From Azolla caroliniana (lineage: Eukaryota; Plantae; Polypodiophyta): 63,831 nucleotides of DNA. Shown here piece by piece: positions 10,940 through 47,076 of this stretch. How positions within the stretch are numbered: position 1 is the stretch's first letter; each line of letters begins with the position of its first letter. Both the position numbers and the translations under genes were made by a program. Location: the NCBI GenBank assembly GCA_043228905.1, contig JBHGNT010000159.1, positions 1 through 63,831 on the forward strand, given 5' to 3'. Under the pieces are notes generated by a model. That model did no database searches, was not told the origin of the DNA, and saw only the letters and a list, made by a program, of their open reading frames with translations.

Positions 10940-10998
10940 TGTCGCGTTGTTACGCGTGTGTGTGTAGAAAGAGGCGGGACCACGGGGGTCTCGGACCA

Positions 10999-11047
<49 letters not shown>

Positions 11048-21989: not shown

Positions 21990-22007
21990 TGGTGAACCCG
22001 ACGTGAA
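21990..22007 (+). promoter_or_regulatory. Primer-binding site complementary to the tRNA-Trp 3' end (N2)
   Basis: TGGTGAACCCGACGTGAA is the reverse complement of the plant cytosolic tRNA-Trp 3' end (UUCACGUCGGGUUCACCA, recalled sequence); it lies 4 nt after the LTR. Confidence 0.85.
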
Positions 22008-22010
22008 AGG

Positions 22011-22554: not shown

Positions 22555-22572
22555 AAAGGGTGGCAAGGGAGA

Positions 22573-24970: not shown

Positions 24971-27900
24971 TGTAAAAAGTAACGTGCGGAAGCAAGTATG
25001 AAGACCGAGCAGAAGGAAGAAAACTCAGGTTTAATGGAGAGCTTGAGCTTACGCAGTATACGCAGGAGAGACAGAGAGAGTGAGAGAGAAAACACAAGAA
25101 CTATATTCAACAAAAGATCTCGATTCACTACTCTATACATATGTGTGTTCCATGAACACTTTTATACCAGTCCTCGAAGGATTGACCGAAGTACTAACCG
25201 TACTTCAATGCTCTTTAAGAGCTCCTACACTAACTCCCAAATATATTCCTCACGGAATATCTTTCCTAACGGCCTCCCGGTTTACGCACTCGGCCTAACC
25301 GATCGGTCCCAATCGATCCGGTCCTCGGCTTCTTCAGCCGATCCGGCCGATGTTGAGCTTGTCTCTCAACACTCCCCCTCAAGCTCAACTCGAGGCTCTT
25401 CGGGACCCTCGGGCTCACAGCTCCGGTTCCTCCTGGTTTTACGCCTCGCTCGCGCTCCTCGACCTGTTCGACTCCGCGCGCTTCGACCCTTCCAGTCGGC
25501 TTGTTTGCTCATGCGGCCCTTATCAGGTCTTCTGTTGTTGCGGTGTTGACACTTCTCCTGCTGCCTTTTCTTCTGCTTGGGCCTCGGTTGATTCAGCGTA
25601 TCTGAATCAAACATCCGAAAGGACTCGGCTACCTCCGACCGGTTTTCGCTCCCGTCCGAGTTGGCTGTCTCCAACTCGTCTTCGGTCTTCTCGCCCTTGC
25701 TGGCGTCATCTTCCCCATGCGTGGTTGGCTTCGGCTCTCTCCTTCGGCTGCTCCCCTTCTGTCCGCTTTCGGACTTTTCCACAGGGGGTCCGCCCTTGGC
25801 TTCTTTAGCCGATCCGAAGTCGAACTCGACAACCGAGTCAACAACCGAGTCAACCGACTCGGTGTCGCGGCCTCGGCTCCTTTCCTGCTGCTTTGCTTGG
25901 TAGTTCGGGATTGTTCTCCCCCGAGAATTGGCACGTCGAGAATTGCCGCAACTTGTCCAGACCAAGGTGCTTAGTGAAGATGTCGGCAGTCTGCCGATCC
26001 GTCGGAATGTACCGAAGTTCGTCTTCACCGGAAAGGACACGCTCACAGAAGAAATGGTAGTGCACCTCAATGTGCTTGGTCCATGCGTGGAAAACGGGGT
26101 TTTTCGCGAGCTGGATGCTGCTGAGGTTGTCGAAGTAGATCGTCGTCGGATCTGACACCTCCTCTTGCAGATCCTTAAGTAGCCGCTTCAACCATATGGC
26201 TTCGCATGTCGCGACAGCCGCTCCTCGGTACTCAGCTTCGATGCTCGACAGTGCAACTGTCGGCTGCTTCTTACTGCTCCACGCGATCGCGGCACTCCCG
26301 AGGGAGAACGTGTATCCAGACGTGGATCGGCGATCAGCGGCGTTGCCAGCCCAATCAACATCGGTGTAGACGACTAACTGCGCGGCTGCACCGGTCCGAT
26401 ATAGTAGTCCCCGGTCCTTAGTGTCGTTGACATACCGAAGTATGCGTTCCGCACACTGAAGGTGCTCCTCGGTAGGTCGCGCCATGAACTGACTAATCAC
26501 TCCGACCGGATAACTGAGGTCGGGTCGGGTGATGGTCAAGTATATGAGGCTTCCGACAATTTGTCGGAACCTCGTCGGGTCGCATACCGTTCCCGTATCG
26601 GGACGAAGCTTGACGGTTCTGTCCAGAGAAGTTGAGACTGACTTACAGTCGACCATCCCGAATTTGAAGAGCATACTCAGCACGTAGTGACGTTGGCTGA
26701 TCAATATGCCTTCGGGGGTACGGATCACTTCGATCCCGAGGAAGTAATGAAGGTCCCCCAAATCCTTCATGTCGAACGATGCCGCAAGCTAGAGCTTCAC
26801 GCGGTGGATTTCACCTAGGTCGGCGCCGGTGATGACAAAGTCATCAACATATAGTAAAATACTAACCGGTCCGAGTTGACCTTTCCGGATGAACAGGGAA
26901 GAGTCCGATTTTGACGTGACGAAACCCATCCGACGCAATTGTTGCGTGATCTTCGCGTTCCAGGCACGCGAGGCTTGCTTCAGTCCGTAAAGGGACTTCT
27001 TCAGTCGGCATACTGCCGAGGAGTTCGTTCCAGAGTGAAATCCAGGGGGCTGTACCATGTACACCTGTTCCTCAAGGTCACCTTGCAGGAACGCATTCTT
27101 TATATCCATCTGATGTAAGTGCCACCCCTTGGCCGCGGCTACTGCGAGCAAAACACGGACGGTCGTCATTTTCGCGACCGGCGCAAACGTCTCATCGTAG
27201 TCGATGCCGTGTTTCTGCGCGTAGCCCTTTGCCACTAGCCGAGCCTTGTACCGGTTGACTGAGCCATCGGTGTTGTAGTTGACCTTGTACACCCACCTAC
27301 ACCCGAACGGTTTTACCCCTCTTGGTGCGTCAACCAAGTTCCAGGTCTCGTTCTCCGCCAATGCATGCATCTCTTCCTCCATCGTGGCACGCCAATTCGC
27401 GTCTTTAGCAGCTTCTGCATAGCTCTCCGGCTCATGCACTTCCGCTACACGGGTCATGTACGCATAATGATGCGCCATGTACTCGTTGTATCCGAATCGC
27501 AAAACAAGATTCTTCTGGCGGGTAGATCGGCGTAATCTCACATTAGCCGATGTCGAGGCCTTCTCGGTCGACGCGGTCTTCACCTTTAAAGACCCGTCAC
27601 CGGTTCCCTCGGAGTCGGACTCGCGTCGGTCTGACTCGTTCCTATCCGTGCCGGAATCCGACACCTTCTTCTTCCCTTTCTCTTTGCGTGTAAGCCGTCT
27701 CCTCGGTTTCCTGCGCGGGGAATGCACGGCCGAGTCTCCACTACTCGTCGGCTCTTCATCGGACTGGTCGTACCGACTCACTCGTCCAATCGCTCCACTT
27801 AAACGGAGTGAAATCGGACTCTCTTCGCGGGTCTTGATTTCGGGCTCATCCGGAGGCATCTCGGCCTCGCTGACCTCATCGTCAGAGCTCGGATTGGAGT

Positions 27901-30479
27901 TGGGGTTCGGAGTTGGGGGCTGGTACCAGGACGCGGACTCGTCAAACACAACGTCGCGGCTAACACGCGCTTGTTTGGTGCAAGGGTTATAGCACTTATA
28001 GCCCTTCTGCTCGTCCGAGTAACCGACCAAGATGCATTTCTCGGCCTTTGCGTCCAGCTTCCTCCTTTTCTTCTTCGGTACATGCACATACGCAATGCTA
28101 CCGAACACCCTCAAGTATCGCAAGTTCGGCGTGTATCTACAACTGAATTCGCGCCGAATTCCCATTTGTTGTAGATAACCGTTGAATTGACCTGAAAAGT
28201 ACTCTTTCCCGCCATCCGACCGCAGGCACTTGATCTTTCGTCCCGTTTCCGTTTCCACGAACCCTTTGAGGTCCCGGAAATAGTCGAAGACTTCGCTCTT
28301 CCTCTCAATGAGGTAGATCGACGTGTGCCGCGTGTGGTCGTCGATGAAGGAGACGAAATATCGGCTCCCACCAAGACTAACATTTTGTGCCGGCCCCCAT
28401 ACATCGGAGTGTATAAGGTCGAGCTTATTCCGGCTCCGGTTTTGCTCGTTGGGGAAAGGAAGTCGGTGTTGCTTCCTGAGCTGGCAGGCTTCACAAATTT
28501 GTGCCTTTCGGCCACTAAATTTGGGCAATCCGAACACTACCTGTTTCGATTGCAGATCTTGAAGCCGCTGGTAGTTGACATGGTCTATCCGCTTGTGCCA
28601 CAAGTCGATGTCCGACTCGGTTTTTCTTCCCTTCGCAAACATTGTGGTGCCGCCGTCAGTGGAGTTGAGGATGAACATCCTCCCGTCTCTGCGCCCTTGC
28701 GCAATCACACGGCCTTCTTCCTCAATGAAGCACCCGAGGTGTGTAAACCGGACCTCCATCCCTTGGTCGACGATCTGTCCGACCGAGACCAAGTTCTTCG
28801 TGATTGTCGGAATGTGCAGCACGCTCATGAGTTTCCCTTTCTGCCCGACATGGCTAAGGGGAACTTCTTCGACATTCGCGATCGGATGCGGAGTGTCGTC
28901 TCCTGTTGCGACTACTCCAGGTTGTATCGGTTTTTCAAGGTACGAGAACCACTCCTTATGGCTCGTCATGTTGATTGACGCGCCGGAGTCTACGTACCAT
29001 AGCTCATCCGATCTCGGGGTGATCTGTTTCATTGACTTTGGTTTGTGTCTCGTCACGAAGGCAGACCCTTCTCTGGCTCTCCCGGAGTCTTCGGCGTAGT
29101 GTGATCACTGCCGATTTCCCTTGTCGGTATGTCCGGAGCCGTTTTCGGAACCGGTTCTCTCCGAATCGGCGTGCTTCTTCCAGCACTCACTTTCCCTGTG
29201 GCCTTTCTTGTCACAGTACCAGCACTCCGCGATGGCCTTCTCTTGCCGGTTCTCATCGCTTCGACTCCCCCTGTTTCCGGAGGGTTCGGAGTTGCTGTCG
29301 GCCCTAAACCGGTGCCTTCTTCCTTGATCTCGTCGGCCGCCTCCATTGCGCGCCGACTCGCCTCGACCTCCACGTCCACGGGGCCTATCTCCCTCCGTGT
29401 ACAACATTCTGCCGTCGGTGTGCGTGCTTGTAGAGGCACCCGCGTGGTTCTCCTCTACCAGGAGCATTGACTGTAAGTCGAAAAAGGACGACGTATTCTC
29501 CCGGGTACACACAGCCGTCCAGAACGCTCCGAACTTCGACGCCAAACCTCCGAGACAGATCTGGACCATCTCACTCTCCTCGATGTTCACCTCTATGGAG
29601 GCGAGGGAGTCGCAGATATCCTTGATCTTCGAGGTATAGTCCGCCACCGACAAGTCGCGTTGTCGTAGGTTGCTCAACTCCTGTCGGAGCTGAAGCTTCC
29701 TGGCTGTGGTGCTCATGGCGAAGATCTTCTTCAGATTTTCCCATGCACCCTTCGGCGTCTTTGCATCCCGAACATAGCTCAATAGCTGTCCACACACGAC
29801 GCGAAGCAGTATAATACCCTGCTCACCGATTGCTCCCACGACGGGAAGTCTCTGTGTGTCGATTCAGGTGCCGCGTCATTAGCTCCTTCGACATAACTCT
29901 AGTAGCCGTGCCCGAGCAGGTACTGGTGCATCTTGTAAGACCAAGACGTGTAGTTGGTTCTGTCGAGCTTCTCTGTTGGAAGCGAGCTCACCATGCCTCT
30001 ATCCATCGTTCTTCTTGTTCTTCTTCGTCAAGCTATGTCGGCTGCAGAGAGGTTCTCAACCCTTGCGCTCTGATACCATGTAAAAAGTAATGGGCGGAAG
30101 TAAGTATGAAGACCAAATAGAAGGAAGAAAACTCAGGTTTAATGGAGAGCTTGAGCTTACGCAGTATACGCGGGAGAGACAGAGAGAGTGAGAGAGAAAA
30201 CACAAGAACTATATTCAACAAAAGATCTCGATTCACTACTCTATACATATGTGTGTTCCATGAACTCTTTTATACAAGTCCTCGAAGGATTGACCGAAGG
30301 ATTGACCGTACTTCAATGCTCTTTAAGAGCTCCTACACTAACTCCCAAATATATTCCTCACGGAATATCTTTCCTAACGGCCTCCCGGTTTACGCACTCG
30401 GCCTAACCGATCAGTCCCAACCGATCCGGTCCTCGACTTCTTCAGCCGATCTGACCGATGTTGAGCTTGTCTCTCAACA
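24971..30479 (-). mobile_element. Copia F, complete: two 401-bp LTRs (24971..25371, 30079..30479), TSD GATGG
   Basis: GATGG at 24966-24970 and 30480-30484; iMet PBS 30067..30078; PPT 25372..25383. Confidence 0.97.
25372..29994 (-). pseudogene. Copia F gag-pol with stops, frameshifts and an integrase deletion
   Basis: Gag knuckle CWYCDKKGHRESEC; protease WYVDSGAS; IN HSDVWGP, RSDGGKEY; RT QMDIKNAFLQG, YVDDF; RH DVDWAG...TKHIEVHYHF (ORFs 29105..29839, 26789..29056, 25850..26770). Confidence 0.95.
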
Positions 30480-30808
30480 GATGGTGGCGGTAGGAAACGG
30501 GAACCGGCGATGTAGAAAGAGCGGATTGGGAGCCGATGAGACGGGAGCCGGCAAGACTCAAATTGAAGAAGGGGCGAACCCTTACCGGTCGGTTACGGTT
30601 TCGGAAGGAGCCGGTAAGGACCAACCAGGGAGCGGTGGGTCAAGCTGGAAATGCACACCCGGGAGCGGAACATAAGACGTGCATGTGGCCATTAAGGACC
30701 AATTTGAAGCACGAGTATGGGACGATGTTCGGCACGGGTGGTGCCGAACAAGGATGGTGGAAGACGGTGTCGTGAAGAAAATCAGCCATAGGCGGAATTG
30801 GAGAGAAG

Positions 30809-33800
30809 TCCTCCTGCTTTTATCCCCGTGAGCGCCTGCACCGCTCCTTCCGTGACTTCTGATATATCGATCGATGCTGCCGCCTGCTCTGGTTCTGCGT
30901 GTGGTGGAGCGTCGGCGATCCGCAACAATCCTTTTAACCCGTTCTCCCTCATCCATTGGCGTGCCTCTTCCGACAGTACCATTGTTTCGAATTCTTCTTC
31001 TGCTGCCTGTTGTTCAGGATCGGGCTGTGTGTGCTCTGTGCGTCGGATCGCTCTACTGTGCTTCAGCGCCTGTATGTAGGAAAATTCGTAAAAAGTGAGT
31101 CCTTCGCAGGCCTGTGTCTTATATAGTGGCCTTTGGCTCGAGCCGCCCTTTTTCGTTTCCCGCGCATGTTCCTCTCCCGCCATAATTAGTATGTCCTTTC
31201 TTGTTTGCCGCGTGTGAGTGCCCACGTTCCATGCTTTAAATAGCAAGTACGCGCACGTCCTTCTTTAATGCATGGCGCCTCTTCGTTGCATGGTGGCGCT
31301 CCCACCTCTTGTGATCTCCCCATCATTACTATGATTCGCATCGATTTTGCCCACGTCTTCTTTTTTTTTTTTTTTTTTTTCTTTGTTTGGACCACGTGAT
31401 TTGCTGGTCCCCCCCGATTTGTTCGGGTCGGTTCGTGTGGATACCGGATCCTTCTGTCGGTTTTCCGGGATAGTCTTTGTCAATATCGGTGTCGGTTCTT
31501 CATCTTGCCGGATTTTCGGGTTTTTCTTGAACGGGTTTGCTGGCATATTTCCCTTATACGGCTTTAGCCGAAACCCATTTGCCCACTTGCCGATGACATC
31601 TCCAGACAACGTGCCGAGCTGATACGACCCATTGTACTCCTTGGTGATCCAGAACGGTCCGGTCCATCGAAACCGCAACTTTCCCGACATGTTCCCTATC
31701 CGTGTCTGGAATAGTAGCACCGGTTTCCCAACTTCGAACTCCTTTTCATTGCCACGCCGGTGTCGGTCCACGAAAGCTTTTCTCCTCCTTTGCTCCAGTT
31801 CGAGTTGTAGTAAGCTGGCTATTCGGTTTTCTTCTAATTCCAACAACGTCGCCAGCCAGATTCGTTCGGACTCGTTCTCACTTAAGCGCTCCTTCACCTG
31901 AATCCGTAAGCTGGGGATCTGGAACTCTACCGGCATGACCGCTTCTAACCCGAATCCTAGACGGAACGGGGTTGTCCGGATGCTGGTTTTGTACGTTGTT
32001 CGGTACGCCCATAGCGCGCTTTGCAATTTCGTATCCCAGTCGGTCCGGTTCTCGTTGACGATTTTTCGTAGGATGTTCTGCAGAGTTTTGTTCGTTGATT
32101 CCGCTAGTCCATTGGCTTGAGGGTAGTAGGGTGTACTCTTTTTATGTACCACCGCGTAAAATGACGTCAGGCTTTCTACTACCTGCCCGAGAAAATGCCC
32201 TCCTTGGTCACTTATAAGCTTGATCGGGCAACCATACCGGCACCATATGCACTCGTACAGGAGCTTTGCCCTGGACGCGACCGTGTTGTCCCGTAAGGCC
32301 TTTGCTTCTACCCATTTGGTGCAATAGTCGGTTGCCACTATGACATACCGATTTCCGGTTCGCATTGCCAGTTGCTTGAAGGGACCGACAAAGTCCAAAC
32401 CCCACTTTTGAAACGGTTCTAAGGGCAAGACCGGGTGGTGTGGCATCCGGGCCTGCTCTGTGGGTTGGCCCAGTTGTTGACACAAATCGCATTCTCTGCT
32501 ATACTTCACGGCATCTTTTAGGGTGGTGGGCCACCACAGTCCGCTCTGCCATATTTTTCGAGCGGTTGCGTCGCCGGCATAATGCCCACCGGCAATTCCA
32601 CAGTGGGCTTCCCTGAGGATTAAATCCTTCTCATCGCTCCGCACTGCTCGTCTCCAGATGCCATCTGCCCCCTTGTGATAGAGGGTGTCTCCAACCAAGC
32701 AGAAGTGTCTACTTCTTACTGCTACCCTTTTCCTTTCATCGCGGTCCATGTTCTCCAGGGGAACTCTGGTGCTCAGGAACTGATGCATCTCAGTTAGCCA
32801 TGTGTCTTCATCGGCTACCGTTGTATCCGTTGCCGGTTTCGTCGTGATCCGGAACAATTCGGCGTCGGGAAAGTCATCCTGGACGCCGTCCCCTGCTTCT
32901 CCGGATTCGAGTCTGCTTAGGTAGTCCGCTACCGCATGCTGCGCCCCGGGTCGGTGGAAAATGTCGAATTCAAATTCCTGTAGCAGCAGTGTCCACCGTG
33001 CAATTTTTCCCGTCAGGGATGCCTTCGAGACCAGGTAGAGTAGTGCCGAATGGTCGACATGGAAGGAAAACTTCCTTCCGAGCAGATAGTGCCTGTACTT
33101 TGTGACACTATACACCATTCCCAATGCCTCGCGTTCCGTCGTAGAGTAATTCCGTTCGGCTTTTGAGAGTTTCCGGCTTGCGTAGTACACCGGTCGGTAC
33201 CATTTCGGCTCCGTGAGTTGCATCAGAACCCTGCCGATTGCTACGTCCGACGCGTCGACGAAGACGTGAAAGCTTTTACTCCAATCCGGCGGTTGCACCA
33301 CCGGAGCTTGCGACAACATAACCTTCAACGCTTGGTAGGCTTCCTCCTCCGTCTCCGCCCATAGGAAGGGTACCCTATGTACGGCGGTATGTAACGGTGT
33401 AGCGAAGTTTGCGAGGTGCCGTATCATCCGGCTATGCCACCTTATTTGGCCCAGGAACCGGCTTAAAGCCTTTGCGTTATTTGGTGCTGGTGCCTCGAGA
33501 ATCGCCTTGACTTTATCCGGATCTACCGCGATTCCTTCCTTACTCACCACGTGCCCTAGTAAGTTGCCGCTTGCCACTCCAAAGACGCACTTGGCCGGGT
33601 TCAGGCTTAATCGGTACTCGCGGCACTTCTCCAAGCACAGCCGGAGGTGATCGAGATGCTCTCCGTGCCGGCTATAGACCGCGAAATCGTCAAGGAAGAC
33701 CTGCATAAAACCGGGGATATATTTCCCGAAAATTTCCATTATTATCTTTTGAAAGGTCGCTGGAGCCGTCTTTAGTCCGAACATCATCACGACCGCGACG

Positions 33801-36800
33801 AACACTCCCCATTCCGTCACGAATGATGTCTTCTCCTGGTCGGCCGGGTTCATTCGTATTTGGTTGTAGCCGCTAAATCCATCTAGGAAGCTGTAAACTT
33901 CGTGGCCGGCTACCGCATCTAACACCCCGTCCGTAAATGGTAGTGGAAACGCATCGGTCACTGTTGCGGCATTTAGTTTTCGGTAGTCCACGCATACCCG
34001 GATTTTGCCGTTCTTTTTCGGGACCACCAATATCGGACTCAGCCAGGTTGCCTGCTTGACCGGTCGGATAAATCCGACCCGGAGGAGCTTATCAATTTCC
34101 TCCTTCACCTTTGCCGCATAATTCGGATTCATCCGGTACCTTCGTTGAGCGATCGGTTTCGCGTCCGTACTTAGGTGAATTTGGTGCTGATAGAGCTGGG
34201 GGTCCAACCCTCGCATGTCTTTGTACGACCACGCGAACACATCCTTGAAGTCTGTTAATAATGCTACCATTGCCTTCTTTTCTTCCTTCGGCAATTCCTT
34301 TGCAACATTTACCGGTCGGGGCTTGTCTGCTGTGCCAAGGTCCACCTCCTCGAGTTGGGATGCTTTTACCCTCTGGGATATCATCATTTCCCTCTCTAGG
34401 GATTCCTGCGCTTGTCGCAGTTCCCGGATCGCTGCGTGGTCCGGTTCATCCGGTGTCGTAATGTACGGTTCTACTGCCGCCGTGATATCCACCTCAAATA
34501 GTGGGACGATTCCTGGGTGTTCCTCGAGGTACCGCTCGACTTCCTCGTCCGGTAATCCCTCCAACATGTTAATGCTTTCCGCATACAATGGAGTTGCTTC
34601 CTTACTGGTGATCACCCGTGGTTGCGTCGTTACTCGTACCTTTGTTTTCCCTCGCCGGAATGTGATCATGTTCTTTTGCCAGCTCTGCTTCATATGCGCC
34701 GTTCGCAGCCATGGTCGTCCGAGCAGTAGGGGGTACGCGCCTTGTACATTCAGCTGCAGCACCACGGCCGATATCCGGAATACGTGGCCTCCGATCGTTA
34801 CTTCCAAATCCCGGATAAGCCCGGTCTGTCGGACTGAGCTGGTATCCGCCATGCGTAACCAGAAGGGGCATGGTTCCCAATCCCGGATGCCCAGGTCGTT
34901 GCATGTCTGTTGGCTGATGACATTTACCCCGGAGCCTCCGTCAATAATCGTTCGAGCAATTTCCTTTCCTTTCACGATTGCCGTGATCGCCGGGCTACTT
35001 GTATCGACCACCGCTGGTCCTTCCTCCGGGTTGGAGAAGAATGTTGGTGCTTGCGTCGGCTTCGGTTTGCTCACGGATGCCTGTAAGTCTGCCGTAAACC
35101 GTGGCACCAACTGTAGTAGTGGTGCTAACGGCAGCACGATTTGACAGTCCTGTAGCGCTTGCCACGTCGGGTTTTCCCCTGGCTGTATGATTTCTTCGTC
35201 TTTTGGCATATTTTTGTCTCTTACTTCTGCCGCATTTTGTTCATTGGCCTGCTTGATCCATTGTGCCGCTTGTTTTCTGATTGCCTCCTGGGCTTCCCAC
35301 TCGGCAGTCTTTCCCTTTGACCGGGTTGTGACCTGCTGTACTTCTGTTATTTCGGCTGTAACCATGTTGACTTCCGGCTGCTTGTCATTGGTTTTGCTTG
35401 GGCATTGGTTACTATAGTGGCCTTCCTTACGGCAGTAATAACAGTACACCTTGTGACTATTGCTCGTTTCTCCTTTGTCCCCGGTTTGGAGGGTGGGTAT
35501 GCTCCGGCGGTCGTCTTCGGTTTTTCGGTTATCCGGTACCGATACCGGGTTGTCATTCCTCGCTGCCTCCCGACGTTCCTCTCTTCGGAAAAATCCACGC
35601 TTCTGATTCCGTTGGAAATTTCTGTTCCCTTGTCGCCTCTCTTCTCTGCATCGTTCGTATTCCGGGGATTCGTCTCGGTCGTACCGGTCCCGGGGGTAGC
35701 TATCTCTGTGTCTCTCCTCTCGGTCATAGTTATCGCGTCTTCTATCAGCGTATATGTTACCGTCGTCTCTCCGGAATCGATCCTCGTCCGGGTTCTGATT
35801 GCGCGGTTCTATGTGTCGAACCGGTGCTGCCTGCCGATTTAACAGGTTATATTCGCATCGGTCCGTTGTATGGGCTCGAGAGTTGCAGATCATACATTGT
35901 GTCCGCAGGGTGCAGTCTACTGTTGAGTGCCCCGAATTTAGGCATGTTGTACATTGTAAGGCCTGTCGGAACCTCAGATCTTCCTCCTTCGGGAGTGCCC
36001 GGTGTAACATCCCCATCGACAAGAAGGGGCTAGTCTTGTCCATTTCTAAAACCCGATCAATAACTTGGTCCATTGTGCGGGTTTGGAAATCAAGGACTCC
36101 GCACATTGTTCGAAGTGGCTCTTTTAGCGCGGCCAAAAAGACGGCTTTGGCTTCGTCTTCGGGTGGTGCTCTTATCAGTTGGCTGTGCAAGGTCTGAAAC
36201 CGAATGATGAATTGTGGCACAGTCTCGTTCTCTTCCTGCCGGGTGGTGTAGAACTGCCCGACCAATTCCTTTTGCTCAAATTGTCTGTGAAAAAGCCTGA
36301 GGAATCTGGCCTTCAAGGCATCGAATGTGGCAAAGCTGCCCGGTAAGTGCTTTACGTGCAATCGGGCCGCCGGTCCTTCTAAGGTTATGCCGAATTCGGC
36401 GACTTTGGATCATTCGGCTTCGGGCTCCGTCAGTCTTTGGGAGACATGGTTGGCTTCCCATGTTTGGAGGAATGCGTACACGTGTGCCTCCGCGTCGGCC
36501 TCATCCCGGTACTTTGGGTATGGGTACGGCATCGTGTCGTCCAACTGACTCTCCTGCTTCCTTCGCTCTCTGTCCGCTGTTGGCGTTGGTGTGAGAACCC
36601 TTGGTTCCTCCGTGGGTGTTGCTGGTGTCCGGTCCTTTGGTTCCTCCGCGGGTGTTGTCGGTATCCGCTCCTTCGGTTCCTTCACGGTTGTTGTCGGTAT
36701 CCGGTCAGCCTCCCTCGGCGATTGCCGGTCACCGAATTCCAGGGTTATTTCTTCCTCTGGCGCCGGTGTTACTGAGTCTTCCAACCCCTCGTCCTCCCGG

Positions 36801-37582
36801 TCATTTGGTGTGTCGTGGCTGCTTTTATACCGGGACGCAACGCTTCCGTCGCTTTCCGACTCCGCCTCAAGTGTTGCGAATGCTTCTGAGTCCCCGTCGC
36901 CCCCGGCGAGCGTCTGCAGTATCGTTTCCGCCTCTTGCAGGCTTGTTATGCTACTGCCTTCGTCGGGGATTTGCAGAACCCGGAACTGCAGTGCTTCTTC
37001 TGCGACTCTCCGAAGAGTTTTGGAGAATGACCGATCCCGTTGGATCTCGTCGACGGCTTACTGCAGGGCTTCCCGTCGTTGCTCGCGTTCGGTGTATCGT
37101 CTCCCTCGTTCGGTGATGTGGTCGTCGTTTGGTATAGACATCCATCCCCCGGTTGTCCTCTGCACTTTGCAGGAATCGTGGTCGCCAAAATAGTGTTGTC
37201 TGGCTGGCCGGACTAGCCTCAACACAGGTGTCTATCCAACACTTCTCCAAAGGGGTGGTAAGGATTGAATGCTAGGTTACACGCGTAAGATGATTACAAT
37301 TAAGCATAGACGGTAAACAATACGAGATACAGATAGACACGCAATAATTACTATTGTATTACTTCCGTCAAACCCTTTACAAATCATCGGATCCTTTTAT
37401 AGGCATCCGGCAAGGTTACAATCGGTGCGCTTAGGCAACCGACATCCGAATCGGTCCGGATCCGGATCGGTACAACTGTACCGGATCCGTCCCTCCGAAT
37501 AATAATTCTACTATTATTTACTTCCTATTATCCGGTCCGACTCCGCCTTCCCACTTGTCCTTGCTCTTCTGACCGGCCAATA
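30809..37582 (-). mobile_element. Gypsy D (Athila/Tat-related non-chromovirus); 5' LTR ~37194..37582; 3' end deleted
   Basis: PBS TGGCGACCACG (tRNA-Arg-like, inferred); long gag-pol; no chromodomain; inserted in the C2 5' LTR. Confidence 0.92.
31265..36361 (-). CDS. Gypsy D Gag-Pol (gag, 3 CCHC knuckles, PR, RT, RNase H, IN); gag probably starts at 37141 and is frameshifted near 36410
   Basis: 1698-aa ORF: IIDGGSGVN, CVDYRKLN, FLDGFSGYNQI, VFLDDF, FVDASD, HCGIAGGH..CDLC, WGLDFVGP, PQANGLAE, WTGPF. Confidence 0.95.
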   Translation of the reverse strand: MHVKHLPGSFATFDALKARFLRLFHRQFEQKELVGQFYTTRQEENETVPQFIIRFQTLHSQLIRAPPEDEAKAVFLAALKEPLRTMCGVLDFQTRTMDQVIDRVLEMDKTSPFLSMGMLHRALPKEEDLRFRQALQCTTCLNSGHSTVDCTLRTQCMICNSRAHTTDRCEYNLLNRQAAPVRHIEPRNQNPDEDRFRRDDGNIYADRRRDNYDREERHRDSYPRDRYDRDESPEYERCREERRQGNRNFQRNQKRGFFRREERREAARNDNPVSVPDNRKTEDDRRSIPTLQTGDKGETSNSHKVYCYYCRKEGHYSNQCPSKTNDKQPEVNMVTAEITEVQQVTTRSKGKTAEWEAQEAIRKQAAQWIKQANEQNAAEVRDKNMPKDEEIIQPGENPTWQALQDCQIVLPLAPLLQLVPRFTADLQASVSKPKPTQAPTFFSNPEEGPAVVDTSSPAITAIVKGKEIARTIIDGGSGVNVISQQTCNDLGIRDWEPCPFWLRMADTSSVRQTGLIRDLEVTIGGHVFRISAVVLQLNVQGAYPLLLGRPWLRTAHMKQSWQKNMITFRRGKTKVRVTTQPRVITSKEATPLYAESINMLEGLPDEEVERYLEEHPGIVPLFEVDITAAVEPYITTPDEPDHAAIRELRQAQESLEREMMISQRVKASQLEEVDLGTADKPRPVNVAKELPKEEKKAMVALLTDFKDVFAWSYKDMRGLDPQLYQHQIHLSTDAKPIAQRRYRMNPNYAAKVKEEIDKLLRVGFIRPVKQATWLSPILVVPKKNGKIRVCVDYRKLNAATVTDAFPLPFTDGVLDAVAGHEVYSFLDGFSGYNQIRMNPADQEKTSFVTEWGVFVAVVMMFGLKTAPATFQKIIMEIFGKYIPGFMQVFLDDFAVYSRHGEHLDHLRLCLEKCREYRLSLNPAKCVFGVASGNLLGHVVSKEGIAVDPDKVKAILEAPAPNNAKALSRFLGQIRWHSRMIRHLANFATPLHTAVHRVPFLWAETEEEAYQALKVMLSQAPVVQPPDWSKSFHVFVDASDVAIGRVLMQLTEPKWYRPVYYASRKLSKAERNYSTTEREALGMVYSVTKYRHYLLGRKFSFHVDHSALLYLVSKASLTGKIARWTLLLQEFEFDIFHRPGAQHAVADYLSRLESGEAGDGVQDDFPDAELFRITTKPATDTTVADEDTWLTEMHQFLSTRVPLENMDRDERKRVAVRSRHFCLVGDTLYHKGADGIWRRAVRSDEKDLILREAHCGIAGGHYAGDATARKIWQSGLWWPTTLKDAVKYSRECDLCQQLGQPTEQARMPHHPVLPLEPFQKWGLDFVGPFKQLAMRTGNRYVIVATDYCTKWVEAKALRDNTVASRAKLLYECIWCRYGCPIKLISDQGGHFLGQVVESLTSFYAVVHKKSTPYYPQANGLAESTNKTLQNILRKIVNENRTDWDTKLQSALWAYRTTYKTSIRTTPFRLGFGLEAVMPVEFQIPSLRIQVKERLSENESERIWLATLLELEENRIASLLQLELEQRRRKAFVDRHRRGNEKEFEVGKPVLLFQTRIGNMSGKLRFRWTGPFWITKEYNGSYQLGTLSGDVIGKWANGFRLKPYKGNMPANPFKKNPKIRQDEEPTPILTKTIPENRQKDPVSTRTDPNKSGGTSKSRGPNKEKKKKKKEDVGKIDANHSNDGEITRGGSATMQRRGAMH

Positions 37583-37939
37583 GGGGACAGGGAATAAAGG
37601 GGAGAGGACAAGAGCAAACGGGGCATCGCGCGCGAGGAGGTAGGGGGAGAGGCTTCGGAACGGAAGCCCGAGCTCTCTACTGGAATCGTCGCTCTCTGCG
37701 GGTGTCGGGAGGTCGCTGACTCTGCTTCGTGGATAGCCCGTGTGCTTCCAGCAGAGTCACTCCCTTTTGCCCCTTTTGTTTTCTTTGAGTCGTGTGACTG
37801 TCGTCGGTGTGCATGAGTTGGGTCCCCGTGTCGGGTCCGTCGCCGCCTTGTCGGTTGTAATTGTCGGAGCTTGTAACCTCTTGTCATTATAATTAAGTGT
37901 TACGTTCTATATCTCTTTTTCTTGCCTGTACGTGTCTGT

Positions 37940-37993
<54 letters not shown>

Positions 37994-38061
37994 CTCCTCG
38001 GTCCAAGACCCTCGTGGTTCCGCCCCTTTCTACACGTACGCGCATAACAACGCGACATATT

Positions 38062-38079
38062 TGGTGAACCCGACGTGAA
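38062..38079 (+). promoter_or_regulatory. tRNA-Trp PBS of C2
   Basis: TGGTGAACCCGACGTGAA, identical to the N2 PBS, 4 nt after the LTR end at 38057. Confidence 0.85.
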
Positions 38080-38101
38080 GGGGCAGCAAAGGAGTCAAAA
38101 G

Positions 38102-40232
38102 ATGAGGGGATCGGAGCTAGCAGAGGCAATGGCGGTGGCCGTCGACCGGCTGGTGAGCGCTCGTGAGGGGACAGGTACCCTCGATAGAGCCATAGAATCG
38201 ATCGTCGGCTCTATAGGCCGTTTCGGAGGGAAAGACGCCACAAGTTATTTGGAGGCTTACCGGGCCGAAATGATCATGAGGGATATCCCGGTGGACAGGC
38301 GGCTGTCCGGATTCCCTCGGGTGGTGACGCCGGGCATCCATGCAGAGGTGGTCGAGGTGCTGGCCGGATGCCAGACTTGGGAGGAGTTCGAGCTGCAGCT
38401 CCTCGAGAAGTACGGGTTTGACGACTCGCTCCGGCTGTTGAGGCGGGACTTCATGGCATGGGTGGAAAGCCCCCGAAAGGGGAGGAACACGTCGGTGCTC
38501 CTCCAGGAGTTGGAAAAACGGTTCGCGCGGCTGTCGACGCTGGACCGGACGGTGCTCGAAACAAGTCGAGTACTGCTGTTTGTCAAGTCGCTGGATGCGC
38601 TCGACAGGGAAAAGGTGGGTCCCCTATTGGAAATGGACAAAGGGCTCACGATGGACTGGGCTATGGTAAAACGGGTCTGCAACCGTTTCGACAAACGACG
38701 CGATTGGAGCAAAGGAAGCACGTCCCGGGGAGGAAACTCGAGGAGCCAGTTTCGGTGCCGGATGGGAGGAAGGAAGAGCCCCGAATCTGGCCGGAGTCGG
38801 GGTCGGCATCGAACGACGTGGTCAGAGGCCCATCAGGAGGAGCGGCTCTGGAGGAGCGGCTCTGGAGGAGCTGACACAGATGGTGCGCGACCTGCAGATC
38901 GCACAGGCCCGGAGAGACAACGGTGAACAACCTCGCGACTGGAGGCCGCCAGCTGGGCAACAGTGCATGTGGTGTGACATGATCAGTCACATTCGGAAGG
39001 ATTGCGCGGATTTCGCCGACGCGCTCAGGACCAACGTGGTGTACCTCTGGAACGGGCGGGTGCACGCAAGCGAGACCCGGAGAGCCCTAGAACTGAATAC
39101 GGGGCGCGGCGGAATGAAGAGGTTGATGGAAGAGGCCGTGGCACGGCACGTCGAAGCCGTCAACTACTCGGTGTCGGCGGGAATTCGGATCGGGGGTGAT
39201 GAGACCCGGAAGGCGAAGGATTCCAGATTCTGGCCGCTAGTGCTAGAAGGCCTCTCTGGAGTTCGGTTGAGGAAGGAAGAGGCGGACCGCGCGGAATAGA
39301 GGGTCCAGGAGGTCACCGGTTGGGACGATCCGGTCGAAGAGAAAACGGGCTTTGTAGAAACCACTCGCCAGAACTACGAGAATCTGGTGGAGGACAAATG
39401 GGCAAGAAAGGCCGGAGGGGTCGGACCCCCGAGGTATGAGACTTGGTTCGGACCGAAACCGACCGGTGCCGGCAACCCAGGCGCGCCGGACGAAAAGAAG
39501 CAGGCAGGGTTTCGGTTGAGCACCGAGATCGAAAGGACCACAGACCTACGAAAGGTCCTGGAGGAACGTATCCTCGACAACAAAGTGGAGTTGTCATTGC
39601 GGGAGGTGCTGGGAATCGCCAAGAGGGAGTTCCACGACTCTATCGTAGACTTGGTGAAGCGCAAGAGGCTCTCGACGGAGCTGGAACCGGAGATGCCGGT
39701 GGAGGTACGGACCACGCACCTGGAAGACGAAGCCCTGGAAGACGAGCTAGTGGGAAGCCACTACATGAAGCCGCATTGGGCCAGGGCGACTACGGAAACC
39801 CCTATACAGATTGGGAACGTTCTGGAACCGGTGGTGGCGTTGGTAGACCATGGATCCGAAATCAACCTGATGTCCATGGATTTCTACAAGAAGGGTAAAT
39901 GTCCGATCAACACCAAGCATGGTTGGAAGATACGGGCAGCGACGCGCGCCACGGAAGAACTACATGGGGCCTGTCCGAACGTACGGGTGAAAATCGGCGA
40001 TGTCGAGATCGACCAACACTTCTTCGTGCAGGAGACGTCCTCGCATTTGGTTATACTAGGAGAGCCATATATCACGGCAGCACGGATGGAGACCAAGGTG
40101 TTGGACAAAGGTTCAGCCTATGCTAGAGTCAAGAGCCAGGACGGGCGTCACTCGGTCCAGTTCCTAACGGTGCGACCAAACCACGAGCGTAACCGCGAGG
40201 CCTTGGGCAGCGAAACCCGAGGGTATTTTTAG
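38102..40232 (+). pseudogene. C2 gag-protease (capsid-like region, CMWCDMISHIRKDC knuckle, aspartic protease)
   Basis: ORFs 38075..38926, 38880..39299 and 39387..40232; LVDHGSEINLM, QHFFVQ, VILGEPY. Confidence 0.88.
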
Positions 40233-43057
40233 AGAGGGCTATCGAGGCGTGGAGCCACGATAGTTCGGACGTCCGGGAACAACCCCACAAATGTACAGAA
40301 CGAAAGAAGACTTGTACCATGGGTAGGAAGTTTTGGTTCTCCGACAACGGAGGTTGTACTATAACCGGCGTCAACGGCCGGGAGAGGAAGCGAGCGGAGG
40401 AGCGGCTCAAGGGATGCGGAGTCCTCTTCCCCGACGAAGACATCAGGGGCGCCGTGGAGGCGGTCTCTTTTGACGACACCTTGGGAGAACTACGAAAGGT
40501 GATTGATGAAGACCTTAGAGAAGACCGGACCGTTCCGATAGGATCGATGGGAATGTACGATCAGTTCCAACTAGCCGTGGAGAGTAGAGACATTACGACG
40601 ATGCAGACTCCTCTCGGCCTAGTGCAGATGTGTACCCTGCCACAAGGAGGGACGGACTCAGTGGCTCACATGGTGAACGCGATGAACAAAGTGCTCAGGG
40701 ATTGTGTCCCGGACATCACCATGCCATTCTTAGACGACATCCCGATCAAGGGATGCCCGATGGAGAAAAGGGACGAGGCAATCGGGCTGAATGGATGTCG
40801 GAATTTCGTGGTGTCCCACATCGATGACTGCGAGAAGGTGTTGCAGAGACTAGAGCGCACGAGGCTCACCTTCTCCAGGGAAAAGTCGGCCTTCGGACAG
40901 TCGGAGATCTTGGTGGTCAGACACCTGTGCGGGCCTTATGGTAGGAAACCGTCTCCGGAAAAGGTAGAGGCCATCTCCGCGATGAGGAACAATTGCGGGT
41001 CGGTCACGGAGGTCCGCAGATTCTTGGGGGCATTCGCGTTCTACCACATCTGGATCCTGCACTACGCACATGTCGCGGAACCCCTCTACGGGCTATTGAA
41101 AAAGGGGCGTAGCTTTGAGTGGAGGACAGAGCACACGGAGTCGGTTCGGAGACTAAAGGAGGCGCTTACGGTAGCGCCGGCTCTCCGTAAATCGGTTTAC
41201 GGCAAGGATGTTCCCATCTGCGTAACGGTGGACACTAGCCCGACCGGGATCGGGTGGGTAATCAGTCAAGAGGACAAGGGCGGCGTACGATTCCCGATCC
41301 GGTTCGGGGTGAAGGTATTAAGCGAGCGACAACGAGGGTACGCCCAGGTTAAGCGCGAACTTTGGGGTGTCGTTTCGGCAGTCAAGGCTGACAAGGATTA
41401 TCTGATCGAGACAGAGGTGATCATCGAGACAGACTGCCTGCCGATACTTGGCATGGTTTCCGGATGCGCGACGCTAAACCTAGCAATGCTCTGGTGGATA
41501 GCGTACATTAAGTCCCTGAACCTGGAGATATGGCACATCTCCGGAAAGGACAACGCCATGGCCGACATGCTTTCGAGGGCAAGGTTCAATGACGAAGACG
41601 GTATGGTTTCGGATGACGAAGAAGTCGGCGAGCACTTCTTCGGGTCGGCTAACGTAACGACGAGGAAAGGGAACACTCCAGCGTCTAACAAATTTGACGA
41701 AAGCAGGTACGACGGGCAGTGGCTCCAAATCGGGAGTTTCCTACGGACGATGAAGCCGGACGCAGTATGGGCGAGAGAGGAGGCAAGCCGGATACGGAGG
41801 AAGGCGTACCGATTCTTCCTGCGGGACAGGTGCATATGGAGGCACCCAAAGAAGAGAAGCGGCATTCCACTCCGAGTAGTAGCAAAGAAAGAAGAACAGG
41901 GGAAACTACTGGCGGCATTTCACGAGAGCCCCTGGGCCGGACACCGTGGAACGTGGGCCACTTTCGAGAAGCTGAAGCTGAAGTATTGGTGGCTGGGGCT
42001 GTACCAGGACGTGCATCGGTACGTAACGACTTGCGAAAGCTGTCAGATGCACTCTGTAGTCCGACACCGGGACGAGCTACACCCGTCCTACGCGCCTACG
42101 GTCCATTTCAAGTGGATGGTCGACTTGATGATGATGCCGATGGGGGTAGGACAGATGCGATACCTGGTGCTTGCACAGGAGGACTTAACGAACCAGGTGG
42201 AAGGCCGTGCACTGTAAAGCAAGACAACCGCGGCGGTATGCTGGTTCCTGATCGAAGAAGTAGTGTGTTGGTACGGGTGCGTCGGGAGGATCATGGCGGA
42301 CCGGGGAGAGCTGGATGCGCGGGAGGCCGAGGAGCTGTTTGATCGGCTAGGCGTCAAACTCTCCCTCACCACGGCGTACAATCCGGAGGCGAACGGAAAG
42401 GTGGAATGTGGGCACAGACCGATTGTAAAGGCGTTGGTGCGTGCATGCCGTGGGCAGGTCGGAAATTGGCCACGACTCCTTCCTTACGCGCTATGGGCGG
42501 ACTGAACTATGCACAGTTCAGTGATAGGGTTTATGCCGGCGGAGCTGATGTACGGACAAAAGCCGATCATGCCGGTGGAGCGGACGGTTTCTTCGTGGGC
42601 GGTGGTAGATTGGAAAGACGAAATGAGCCGGGAGGAGTTGTTGGCGGCGCGGATTCGGCAACTCGAGCAGAGGCCGGAGGACGTGATACGGGCGAAGGAA
42701 AGGCTGCAAGCGGCATAGGAGCGGAACAAGATCCGGTTCAACCGGACGCACCGATTGCGACCAAAGAAGATCGAGGAAGGCGACTGGGTCTTGGTATACG
42801 ACAGCAACCTCGACAATAAGCACAAGGCGGTGCGAAAGTTTGCTAGGAGATGGTTCGGGCCCTACATGGTGACGAGCGCGAACGGCCACGGAACGTACCA
42901 CCTCGCAGAACTCGACAGGACACGGTTAGCGGTGCCGGTGGCCGGAAAGCGGATCCAAACTTTCAAAAAGCAGTCCGAAGACGAGCCGGAGCCTGCGAGC
43001 GGGAGCGACAACGACGATCAGTTCGGGTCCGACGGAGAATCGGAGAGCAACGAATGA
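40226..43057 (+). pseudogene. C2 pol (RT with N-terminal deletion, RNase H, integrase, no chromodomain)
   Basis: TPLGLVQMCTLPQGGTDS, PFLDDIPIKG, TVDTSPTGIG, IETDCLP, HESPWAGH..CESC, YNPEANGKVE, WFGPY; several stops. Confidence 0.92.
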
Positions 43058-43644
43058 GGCCGGTTTTCTTCGGTATCTACCTGTCTCTGGCGCATGCCGG
43101 TGGATGCGCGGTTTGGTGGGGGTGGATGTCGTGAAGAAAACCGGCCATAGGCGGAATTGGAGAGAAAGCGCGTAAACTGGCCCTTACACGGATGAACGCG
43201 TGACTGGATACTTTGCACGCGAACCGGTGGATGTAATTACTAAGCCGCACGCATTTATTCGAGGGGATTGTGCGTATCCCGGTCAGAGGGGACAGGGAAT
43301 GAAGGGGAGATGACAAGAGCAAACGGGGAATCGCGCGCAAGGAGGTAGGGGGAGAGGCTTCGGAACGGAAGCCCGAGCTCTCTACTGGAATCGTCGCTCT
43401 TTGCGGGTGTCAGGAGGTCGCTGACTCTGTTTCGCAGACAGCCCGTGTGCTTCCAGTAGAGTCGCTCCCTCTTCGCCCTTTTGTTTTCTTCGAATTGTGT
43501 GACTATCATCAGTGTGCGTGAGTTGGGTCTCCATGTCGGGTCCGTCGCCGCCTTGTCGGTTGTAACTCTCGGAGCTTGTAACCTCTTGTCATTATAATTA
43601 AGTGTTACGTTCTATATCTCTTTTTCTCGCCTCTACATGTCTGT

Positions 43645-43710
<66 letters not shown>

Positions 43711-46223
43711 CCTCGGTCCAAGACCCCCATGGTCCCACCCCTTTCTACACGTACGCGCGTAACAACGCGACAACGGCACACGACGGTGTCGGGAATGAGG
43801 TAACATGGGTGCGCAACAGACTACACGGTTGAAGACCGGAGACGGTATCAAGAGCCGAAGAAGGATCCTCCACACTCACTTTGGAGATCTTGGCGGCTCA
43901 GTCGGAGTGGCAACGACTGGCGTGGCAAGCCGAGCCCGTGATGAGAAGCCGGTGGGGGCGAGGGGACGACGACAAGCAGAAGGATCCGGACCAGTCGTAG
44001 TGGCGCGAGACGAAAGGGGGGGGCAAGTGGGCTACTACGGGGTGGTCCTCGGACACGGAGAGGACACCGATAAGCGGAGAGAGCGTGACACACGGAGGTG
44101 CCAGACCGGGAACACCGGCGCGGAGATAGGTTGCCAGTTCAGGTGATCTCGCATAGAAGGCCAAAGAGGGATCCTCCACATTGGTTCCGGAGACCTTCGT
44201 AGTTCGGCCGCCGTGGCAGCGTAAGACCATGGACAAGGTAGGTGGCGGCGAGGGACGAAGGCGATGGAGATCAGCGCGGGACGAGAACCGGGACGACGCG
44301 AAGGTCAACGGAGGCCGAGTGGGCCATCACGGGTGTTCCCTGGACAGAGGATACCGTGTAACCGCAGGAACGAGCGGCGTGCACGCGGTCAAGAGAAGGG
44401 CCAACGGGGAAACATGCGGACTACGTGATCGCTGCGAATGACCGATCGACAGGTCCAACAAGTGTATGGCAAGGCAAACGTGGAAAATGAACCGGAGCCG
44501 ACGGTTCGGACCGGCGAGGGCAACGCCGCTGTCGGAATGCGGATTATGGAAGACCGGTTCCTCACCAGCCAGAATCCCTCACACTTCTCTGAAGTTGGCA
44601 CGTATCGGTGGACGTGTGGTTTGGTGGGGCCGGATGTCATGAAGATTCTGGGCCATGGTGAGAAACCAGGGAATATCGGAAGAATCGGCGGAGTGCATCA
44701 TGTGCCCTCACCCTTGTATAAACATGTGAATAATAGGGGTGCGTTTATGGCGCCAAGTGGGAGTCAAGTCGGGACAAAGAATCCCATGTAAATCGGGATT
44801 TATCCCACATTGTAACGCATCCCTCTCCTTGTTCTATAAAAGGAAGGGATGGTCCCTTGTAGAGGGGTTGCCCATTTTGAGTCGTCGGGGTATACCATTT
44901 TGTAGAGGTTCGTGTTGTATCTTTTCCTTTGTAATATATACACTTGTATCTGTTTGTGCATGTTGGTGTATCTGGTGATGTCGGGAGCATAGCCCTCTGT
45001 TCCCTGTGCATAAGAGTCGGTGTCGTGCGCATGCTTTCTCTCTGTCTCATGTTCGGTCGCCTCCGAGTCGTGTCCGGAGTCGGTTTTCTTGGCATCCCTT
45101 TTTCCCTCGTCCGAGACCCCCGTGGTCCCGCCCCTTTCTACACGCACGCGCGTAATAACGCGACAACTTGATTTTAATATCAAATGTTTTCCTTTTCGGG
45201 GAAAGGATCTTGGTGGCCGTCCTCACATTTTTGTGAGCATGGCGTTGTCACCATCCTGTTTTCAATAATTTTTCATTGTTGACATTCCCGTTGGTGACTT
45301 CGATTTTATTACGTAAAGAAATGCCTATAGTCACAATGATGTTGAGAACCTAGGGCTTGACCCACTTCATGTGAGGTCACTCCTATGCCACACATATCCA
45401 ACATCCCGCCCTTGTTACATGGATACGATGCCACCATGAGATCATTCTTACGAAAGGCATTCGTAATGACGTAACCATGTGATGGGCCACATGGGCCTAC
45501 TACAAAAAAAGGGCTCATTTGGCTTGACCATTAGGTTGCATTAGCGTATGCCATTGTAATTACGAGACTTGAGGTTAGGTAACGTACCTACAAAGTTTGT
45601 GGTAAACGAGGGGGAAATAAGGACTCTTGACATATATGTTTCTTTTAAAAAAACATATATGGGCAAATGCCTTGCATATCTCTTATATGCATGAAACATT
45701 AAACATTCAAGAAGAGAAACCTACAACATCGTTGATACATATGAGTATAACACATGTTTAGACTTGAGGTCTAAGTGCACTTCAGAGTCCTCGTAATAGG
45801 ACGTAAAGAGACGAAACCACATATGTGGGCACAGAAACATAGTTTATTGTTAACATTTTTTTTCGTGTATAAACTACTCATGACGCGAACAGATATGGTT
45901 GAGCCTTGAGGAGCCGGCATGAAAAAATCGATATAGAGATCAGGGAAATACATTAATTTGTCAACCCCATGGTTTTTAAAACACCTTTGTGTTACCAAAG
46001 TAACCTGATCTTGAACCTCATCTCATACGTCTAGAGGGTATTGACGTGAGATCATGATATCGATTAATGTTTCTCCATGATATGTTTACATCACGACATG
46101 ATGTTATGACTATTTTTCTGACCTTATCCGATATCTTTGCCGGAAATAATCATTCAATGGCTCAAAATAACGACCCGATGTCATGCGCTCAAGCGGAAGG
46201 AACTCAAGGAAATCCTCCTGGAC

Positions 46224-46689: not shown

Positions 46690-47005
46690 CTCTCGACCGA
46701 GTAGATAGACCTTCCGACAAAGGCCTCTGTGAACTCATCGATTGTCGGGCCGACTCCTGCATTTCGAATGGTCACCTTGTTGACCGGCTGTAGGTCTTGA
46801 ATAAAGCCTAGTGTGTCGTTCCTGTTCGGCACCGTAAACCACCCGTTTGAATAAGGTTCATAGCACTCGATGGCTCAAGGATACCCATCTCCACTTTCTG
46901 CTTGAGCAGCTCGAGGATGGAAGCCCTCGGTACCGGAATCGGTTTGAGACTCCACGGCACATGCGGTATCGTGAAGATCATCATTGGTTCTACGATAGTC
47001 GGGTC
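46690..47005 (-). pseudogene. Family C-type RT N-terminal fragment
   Basis: FTIPHVPWSLKPIPVPR..KVEMGILEPS, WFTV, FIQDLQPVNKVTIRNAGVGP..EAFVGRSIYS. Confidence 0.8.
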
Positions 47006-47076
47006 TACATGTTGTTGGGGTGGGGGGTTGGGTCTACATCTTCTTGGCTTCACCCCCCTCTCAAGGGGGTTTCAAT

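What the first reader, a model, noticed from the sequence alone, without database searches (positions are those of the whole stretch)
30768..43772. Fungal-type Gypsy lineage in a plant, primed by tRNA-Trp, with a 4-bp TSD
Seen: RT LPQGGTDS/PFLDDIPIKG followed by an insert, RT start HVPW..PIPVPR/QDLQPVNKVTIRNAG (fragment at 46690), RNase H VDTSPTGIG/IETDCLP, no chromodomain, an 18-nt Trp PBS and TSD ACGG. From recall, these motifs resemble basidiomycete/ascomycete Gypsy elements rather than the standard plant clades, which mostly use iMet/Arg/Lys/Asp primers and 5-bp TSDs. Trp priming is best known from avian retroviruses. Inference: ancient horizontal transfer or a poorly catalogued lineage.
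Basis: partly seen in the sequence, partly recalled or inferred. Interest (0 to 1): 0.7.

Follow-up and report, generated by a model that had tools for sequence, protein, structure and literature searches.

The report
Broken copy of known Phygy retrotransposon
This is a broken jumping gene, likely of the Phygy group already described from mosses, liverworts and ferns, whose odd primer and 4-base target are that group's published signature; its kinship to fungal elements is real but distant.

Summary
In detail: a dead Ty3/gypsy LTR retrotransposon with an 18-nt PBS (38062-38079), ACGG on both flanks, the quoted RT/RNase H motifs and no chromodomain. Corrections: the 5' LTR is split by a nested Gypsy, the RT start is deleted, and the 46.7-kb RT fragment belongs to another remnant. 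The interpretation mostly fails. REXdb already defines a plant clade, Phygy, by this combination: 4-bp NCGN TSD (100%), tRNA-Trp PBS (81%), no extra domain. ACGG is NCGN, and LTR ends in public runs run on through CG (56 of 68 and 55 of 65 listed contigs). Nearest named relatives are liverwort and fern proteins (47-62% RT-RH identity); Chara and two basidiomycetes lie at 33-35%. The tree puts it in a land-plant clade inside a wider group that includes fungi. Nesting within the basidiomycete clade is rejected (AU p=0.011); grouping with Chara is not (p=0.57). No Physcomitrium Phygy sequence was available, so membership rests on traits and host range (~0.85). What remains of interest is the fungal kinship of Phygy, which REXdb left open.

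The parts
30764..30767 (+). left target-site duplication ACGG (fits NCGN)
30768..30807 (+). first 40 nt of the 5' LTR (assignment to this element inferred)
   Evidence: 38/40 to the 3' LTR start; no polypurine-tract context
30808..37581 (-). nested canonical-type non-chromovirus Gypsy: intact 1714-aa gag-pol ORF (31265-36409), PBS at 37178-37187 (Arg label recalled), only one LTR left; right junction uncertain by about 10 nt
37582..38057 (+). rest of the 5' LTR (LTR positions 161-646); positions 41-160 missing
   Evidence: 90.5% to the 3' LTR; K2P 0.081 over 476 sites
38062..38079 (+). 18-nt primer binding site (tRNA-Trp by recall); exact complement of the 18-nt small RNA filed as miR894
38102..40232 (+). 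gag-protease region, broken by a frameshift (between 38698 and 38856) and a stop (39297); DUF4100 hit near 39489-39668; protease DHGSE near 39846
40250..43057 (+). RT-RNase H-integrase in the -1 frame relative to gag-protease; about 220 codons incl. RT start deleted near 40550; stops at 42215, 42503, 42716; no aRH, no chromodomain
43115..43126 (+). polypurine tract
   Evidence: same context before 3 other LTR starts
43127..43772 (+). 3' LTR, 646 nt, TG...CA, with a CT microsatellite
43773..43776 (+). right target-site duplication ACGG
46695..47008 (-). separate remnant of the same lineage holding the RT start; not part of this element
   Evidence: 77-83% to P0265 residues 205-310
10940..12603 (-). 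second, truncated copy (integrase end + 3' LTR); flank CCGG fits NCGN
   Evidence: 85.6% over 1184 nt
21369..45165 (+). related, likely non-autonomous element with the same PBS (21990) into which this copy and a Copia (24971-30479, 5-bp TSD GATGG) are inserted; its 5' LTR start is lost

Best explanation
It is a dead Ty3/gypsy LTR retrotransposon, likely of the described non-seed-plant clade Phygy, lying in a nest of other retrotransposons. Shown: LTRs, PBS, 4-bp ACGG flanks, gag-protease and RT-RH-IN remains, the breaks, and a CG-centred target preference of the family. Inferred mechanism: the host's cytosolic tRNA-Trp primed reverse transcription at the 18-nt PBS; RT-RH-IN was likely reached from gag-protease by a -1 frameshift at the short overlap near 40220-40232; the integrase made a 4-nt staggered cut centred on a CpG, leaving NCGN duplications. 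Later a canonical Gypsy inserted in the 5' LTR, and one deletion likely removed that element's 3' LTR with 120 nt of the host LTR. The fungal look reflects old common descent from a non-chromovirus radiation that also holds fungal and Chara elements.
For: REXdb supplement: Phygy, 186 elements, TSD 4 bp 100% NCGN, PBS Trp 81%, no extra domain. Window: both flanks ACGG; 3 of 4 3'-LTR right flanks are NCGN, p about 0.001 at CpG frequency 0.063. Public runs: of the loose ends listed behind the LTR end, 56 of 68 (X2) and 55 of 65 (X3) run on through CG at +2/+3, and the rest read by majority as spacer plus PBS; before the LTR start the majority letters of 21 contigs in X1 put CG at -3/-2, and two head-to-tail joints hold a 4-letter NCGN between LTR end and start. 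CG at +2/+3 and -3/-2 fits a 4-bp and not a 5-bp duplication. The 18-mer follows an LTR-end-like motif in 92 of 121 metagenome loci, and 53 of 121 carry a related gag. Named near relatives are Riccia sorocarpa, R. fluitans and Adiantum nelumboides; Phygy is reported from a liverwort and ferns. Land-plant clade SH-aLRT 100 (Adiantum inside it). No aRH in the window ORFs or in any of 12 relatives scanned. 70 of 71 unnamed long relatives have RT-RH-IN without protease, so the split is conserved.
Against: No Physcomitrium Phygy sequence could be put in the tree (REXdb fasta too large; no named moss protein among the hits listed or the 30 clusters looked up). Length without the nested insert is about 6.2 kb, about 7 kb allowing for the deletions, below the 7.7-10 kb of P. 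patens Phygy. One LTR end (45165) has flank ACTT. The free trees place the Chara elements outside a 42-row group holding land plants and fungi (SH-aLRT 98), which does not follow host phylogeny. The Trp identity is recalled. One search hid 33 rows, and contigs are not independent insertions. 27 of 56 tree rows have no known host; trees are quick searches without bootstrap.
Confidence: 0.85

Rival explanations
1. An ancient horizontal transfer from fungi (or another eukaryote) founded this clade in early land plants; it then spread vertically. Compatible with the element being Phygy.
For: Shared LP[QM]G.TNS / DD..IKG motifs and insert with fungal proteins; DUF4100 shared with Phenoliferia; free trees put land plants nearer the fungal clade than Chara; no named seed-plant protein among listed hits; precedent proposed for Tcn1 and Mariner elements in mosses.
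Against: Only 33-35% RT-RH identity to the two named fungi, the same as to Chara; nesting beside Phenoliferia to the exclusion of Tilletia rejected (p=0.011); land plants + Chara not rejected (p=0.566, likelihood 6.3 higher than the free tree). Only two fungi are named, so donors elsewhere were not tested.
Confidence: 0.15
2. It is an undescribed lineage that only converges with Phygy in primer and TSD.
For: No direct sequence anchor to Phygy; shorter than P. patens Phygy; TatI shows that Trp with 4 bp occurs in more than one clade.
Against: It would need four traits (Trp, 4 bp, NCGN, no extra domain) and the host range (liverwort, fern) to coincide; NCGN preference was unique to Phygy in REXdb.
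Confidence: 0.1
3. It is TatI (Trp PBS, 4-bp TSD).
For: Same primer and TSD length.
Against: TatI carries an aRH in 100% of members; none here or in relatives; RT motifs are not of the canonical type.
Confidence: 0.02
4. Recent transfer from a fungus, or fungal contamination of the assembly.
For: Motif resemblance only.
Against: Relatives at 47-62% in named plants against 33-35% in fungi; thousands of matching contigs in each of 4 runs laid; several related copies nested among Copia elements in the window.
Confidence: 0.02

Closest known systems
non-chromovirus|Phygy (REXdb, Neumann et al. 2019, PMC6317226)
   Same: 4-bp TSD, NCGN preference, Trp-type PBS, no chromodomain, no aRH, no extra ORF, coding region fills the interior; host range includes liverworts and ferns (PMC12885004, PMC13477047).
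   Different: Shorter (about 7 kb vs 7.7-10 kb). REXdb lists ORF organisation as not determined; here gag-protease and RT-RH-IN are separate frames, also in 70 of 71 unnamed relatives. Sequence identity to P. patens Phygy not measured.
non-chromovirus|OTA|Tat|TatI (REXdb)
   Same: tRNA-Trp 75%, 4-bp TSD 100%.
   Different: Defined by aRH, absent here; no NCGN preference reported.
non-chromovirus|Selgy (REXdb)
   Same: 4-bp TSD 96%, short, no extra domain.
   Different: tRNA-Ala primer 90%, 4.4-6.7 kb, gag overlaps protease-pol rather than gag-protease overlapping RT.
Fungal non-chromovirus Gypsy: Ylt1-like / SN_1006 (Novikova et al. 2010, PMC2864245)
   Same: No chromodomain; two named basidiomycete proteins share the RT motifs and fall in the same wider clade; DUF4100 in one.
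   Different: 33-35% identity only; separate clade. That these fungal proteins are 'Ylt1-like' is my recall: no Ylt1 sequence was in the tree.
Tcn1 chromovirus (moss/lycophyte, fungal-related)
   Same: A non-seed-plant Gypsy with fungal relatives.
   Different: Chromodomain, self-priming, 5-bp TSD; none applies here.

Membership tests
Ty3/gypsy LTR retrotransposon | LTRs TG...CA, PBS, PPT, order protease-RT-RH-IN | tested here: met
Phygy | RT-RH-INT clusters with P. patens Phygy references (the primary definition) | not testable with these tools
   REXdb fasta too large; no named moss protein
Phygy | 4-bp TSD | tested here: met
   CG position on both sides and 4-letter joints
Phygy | NCGN target preference | tested here: met
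   3 of 4 right flanks and 1 of 1 left flank in window; 56 of 68 and 55 of 65 listed loose ends
Phygy | PBS complementary to tRNA-Trp | tested here: inconclusive
   18-nt PBS whose complement ends in CCA, is conserved in 121 loci and equals an abundant plant small RNA; no tRNA gene retrieved; Trp is recalled
Phygy | No chromodomain, no aRH, no extra ORF | tested here: met
Phygy | Length 7.7-10 kb (descriptive, from one species) | tested here: inconclusive
   6.2 kb as it stands without the nested insert, about 7 kb allowing for deletions
TatI | aRH domain | tested here: not met
Selgy | tRNA-Ala PBS; gag overlapping protease-pol | tested here: not met
   protease lies in the gag frame region and RT-RH-IN is separate; primer identity itself recalled
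Tcn1 | chromodomain, self-priming, 5-bp TSD | tested here: not met
Fungal Ylt1-like clade | RT/IN nests among fungal Ylt1-like elements | tested here: inconclusive
   same wider clade as two named basidiomycetes, but nesting inside their clade rejected; Ylt1 itself not available

The most novel reading that the evidence does not exclude
Phygy is the land-plant branch of the fungal non-chromovirus (Ylt1-like) radiation and entered the land-plant ancestor by an ancient transfer, separately from the Chara elements, bringing a CpG-centred integrase and a split gag-protease / RT-RH-IN layout; it was later lost from seed plants.
Probability: 0.15. Interest if true: 0.55.

Novelty: new member of a known kind. 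Interest (0 to 1): 0.22.

Why it matters
As a locus it is ordinary: one dead copy in a retrotransposon nest. Two side results have modest value. The NCGN preference described from one moss holds in this genome's family too, so CpG-centred integration looks like an old trait of the clade. And the clade sits with fungal and Chara elements rather than with canonical plant gypsy RTs; REXdb called the relation of plant non-chromoviruses to non-plant ones unclear, and my searches found no paper making this link (listings only for most). If an ancient fungal origin were shown, it would be a second case beside Tcn1.

Tried and rejected
No whole genome is held, so no genome-wide TSD census or tRNA set. 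No tRNA gene or Rfam match in the window. Scans for a tRNA gene with the PBS-complementary 3' end found 0 in genome contigs, 0 and 3 in viral contigs, the 3 not tRNA genes; 1 unrelated tRNA-Arg in 121 PBS loci. No paper listed held both the PBS complement and 'trp'; the one paper with miR894, tRNA and Trp did not link them. No related loci in viral contigs. No RNA holder listed. ESM Atlas rows for two relatives were generic gypsy clusters with few taxa. 30 clusters looked up gave host names for 3 only: Riccia, Chara, Phenoliferia. The careful bootstrap tree did not finish; quick trees are reported. For the 56-row tree, 95 proteins were chosen by hand, 10 dropped for under 60% coverage and 29 as redundant. 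Flanks of the ACGG site could not be shown adjacent in another copy. Supplements of PMC7466625 and PMC2864245 gave no usable reference sequence or motif; REXdb files 1 and 3 could not be read and bear directly on membership. The original Ylt1 paper is not held. Earlier scan findings: none. Rejected: TatI, Selgy, Tcn1, recent fungal transfer, contamination.
Full report
Anatomy. The 3' LTR lies at 43127-43772 (646 nt). Its positions 161-646 recur at 37582-38057 (90.5%) and positions 1-40 at 30768-30807 (38/40); ACGG flanks both outer ends. Between the two 5' pieces sits a minus-strand Gypsy with an intact 1714-aa ORF and one LTR. One deletion that took its other LTR and 120 nt of the host LTR is the simplest account (inferred). 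The LTR pair differs by K2P 0.081 over 476 sites. The 18-nt PBS starts 4 nt behind the LTR end. Gag-protease (38102-40232) has a frameshift and a stop. RT-RH-IN follows in the -1 frame, lacks about 220 codons including the RT start, and has three stops in the integrase. The copy is dead. The element sits, with a Copia, inside a related element carrying the same PBS.

Target site. Three of four 3'-LTR right flanks of this lineage in the window are NCGN (ACGC, ACGG, CCGG; ACTT is not), p about 0.001 at the window's CpG frequency. Laying contigs of two public runs on the LTR end, 56 of 68 and 55 of 65 listed loose ends run on through CG at +2/+3; the 12 and 10 that leave at the LTR end read by majority as spacer plus PBS; 33 rows were not shown. 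On the other side the majority letters of 21 contigs in one run put CG at -3/-2, and two head-to-tail joints hold four letters of NCGN form. That geometry fits a 4-bp duplication, not 5. It also weakens the ACGG pair as proof of one insertion (1 in 16 by chance); the lack of a polypurine tract before 30768 supports the pairing.

Primer. Its complement is the most abundant isoform of the small RNA filed as miR894, first reported in moss and already noted to map on gypsy elements (PMC5846777, passages). It ends in CCA, as a tRNA 3' end would. That the tRNA is Trp is my recall; scans for the gene found nothing.

Relatives. Named near hits are Riccia sorocarpa, R. fluitans and Adiantum nelumboides. 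Over RT-RH, identity is 47-62% to these and up to 81% to unnamed proteins, 33% to Chara braunii, 34-35% to Tilletia and Phenoliferia, and 25-31% to canonical gypsy RTs (names). In 56-row RT-RH-IN trees the window falls in an 18-row clade with Riccia (SH-aLRT 100), inside a 49-row group with Chara and both fungi, apart from 7 canonical rows; Adiantum lies in the same clade in the RT-RH FastTree. The free trees put Chara outside a group of land plants plus fungi (98), but a land-plant + Chara clade is not rejected (p-AU 0.566). Placing the clade beside Phenoliferia to the exclusion of Tilletia is rejected (0.011), as is grouping it with the canonical nested element (0.0003). Limits: quick searches, no bootstrap, long branches, 27 ungrouped rows of unknown host, two named fungi. 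In 70 of 71 unnamed long relatives RT-RH-IN is called without the protease, so the split seen here is a family trait; a -1 frameshift is inferred, not shown.

Comparison with the known. REXdb (PMC6317226; passages and supplements 5 and 6) defines Phygy from P. patens: 186 elements, 4-bp TSD 100%, NCGN, tRNA-Trp 81%, no extra domain, 7.7-10 kb, and says NCGN preference is peculiar to it. PMC6911290 (passages) also finds 4-bp TSDs commonest in Phygy. Phygy is reported in a liverwort (PMC12885004, passages) and in ferns (PMC13477047, one passage), matching my hits. TatI shares Trp and 4 bp but has an aRH, absent here. Fungal Gypsy elements fall into chromoviruses and Ylt1-like elements (PMC2864245, section 5; PMC3248453, passages); calling my fungal rows Ylt1-like is recall. 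PMC7466625 (passages) reports that the tree of the moss family RLG2 follows host phylogeny; whether RLG2 is Phygy I could not tell. PMC8282616, PMC9033089, PMC5014426, PMC8307478, PMC3431224 and PMC12877858 were seen as passages only and added little.

Mechanism. Shown: structure, breaks, 4-bp CG-centred targeting by the family. From established knowledge of LTR retrotransposons: tRNA-primed reverse transcription, PPT-primed second strand, staggered integration. Inferred: Trp primer, -1 frameshift, order of nesting, vertical descent among land plants.

Verdict. Real observation, known kind: a new, dead member of Phygy (about 0.85; the defining tree with P. patens references could not be run). 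The fungal resemblance is true kinship at 33-35% identity, not evidence of recent transfer. An ancient transfer remains possible (about 0.15). I found no paper linking Phygy to fungal elements in searches for Phygy (18 papers listed) and Ylt1 with fern, Physcomitrella or clade; subscription papers and unreadable supplements may hold it. Interest 0.22.

Noticed in passing
window 38062-38079 and 21990-22007: The PBS is the exact complement of the 18-nt small RNA filed as miR894; it is likely a 3' tRNA fragment and could act on these elements. The link to gypsy elements was already raised in PMC5846777, from a conifer.
   Followed up: partly
window 40193-40250: Gag-protease ends in a T-run before its stop and overlaps RT-RH-IN in the -1 frame; 70 of 71 unnamed relatives have RT-RH-IN without protease. 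REXdb lists Phygy organisation as not determined.
   Followed up: partly
window 13300-16423 and 21369-45165: Likely non-autonomous derivatives sharing LTR ends, polypurine tract and (at 21990) the PBS, with GC-rich non-coding interiors and a decayed gag at 22528-23412.
   Followed up: partly
window 30808-37581 and 58500-63831: Two copies (about 72% alike) of a canonical-type non-chromovirus Gypsy without aRH or chromodomain hits; the first has an intact 1714-aa ORF but only one LTR. Clade not determined.
   Followed up: partly
window 38058-43126 and 30808-37581: CpG is not depleted in either Gypsy (observed/expected 1.08) although the outer one has 8% LTR divergence.
   Followed up: no
window 19639-21371 and 18489-19612 vs 45166-46223: A 1.6-kb inverted duplication holding iMet-type PBS copies replaces the start of the LTR at 21369, and the flanks of the whole 21-45 kb nest are inverted repeats of each other (about 89%).
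   Followed up: no
window 24971-30479, 51099-54506, 54519-58571: Three related Copia copies; the first is full length with 95.8% identical LTRs and a 5-bp TSD.
   Followed up: partly
window 46341-46600, 48082-48909, 16365-17782: Fragments of canonical gypsy RT, RNase H, gag and protease that resemble Tcn1-type elements by recall; not tested.
   Followed up: no
window 2918-3403 and 8057-8358: Related tandem arrays with 54-nt and 40-nt units, inverted relative to each other.
   Followed up: no
P0128, P0263 (Chara braunii): [quoted passage not shown]
   Followed up: partly
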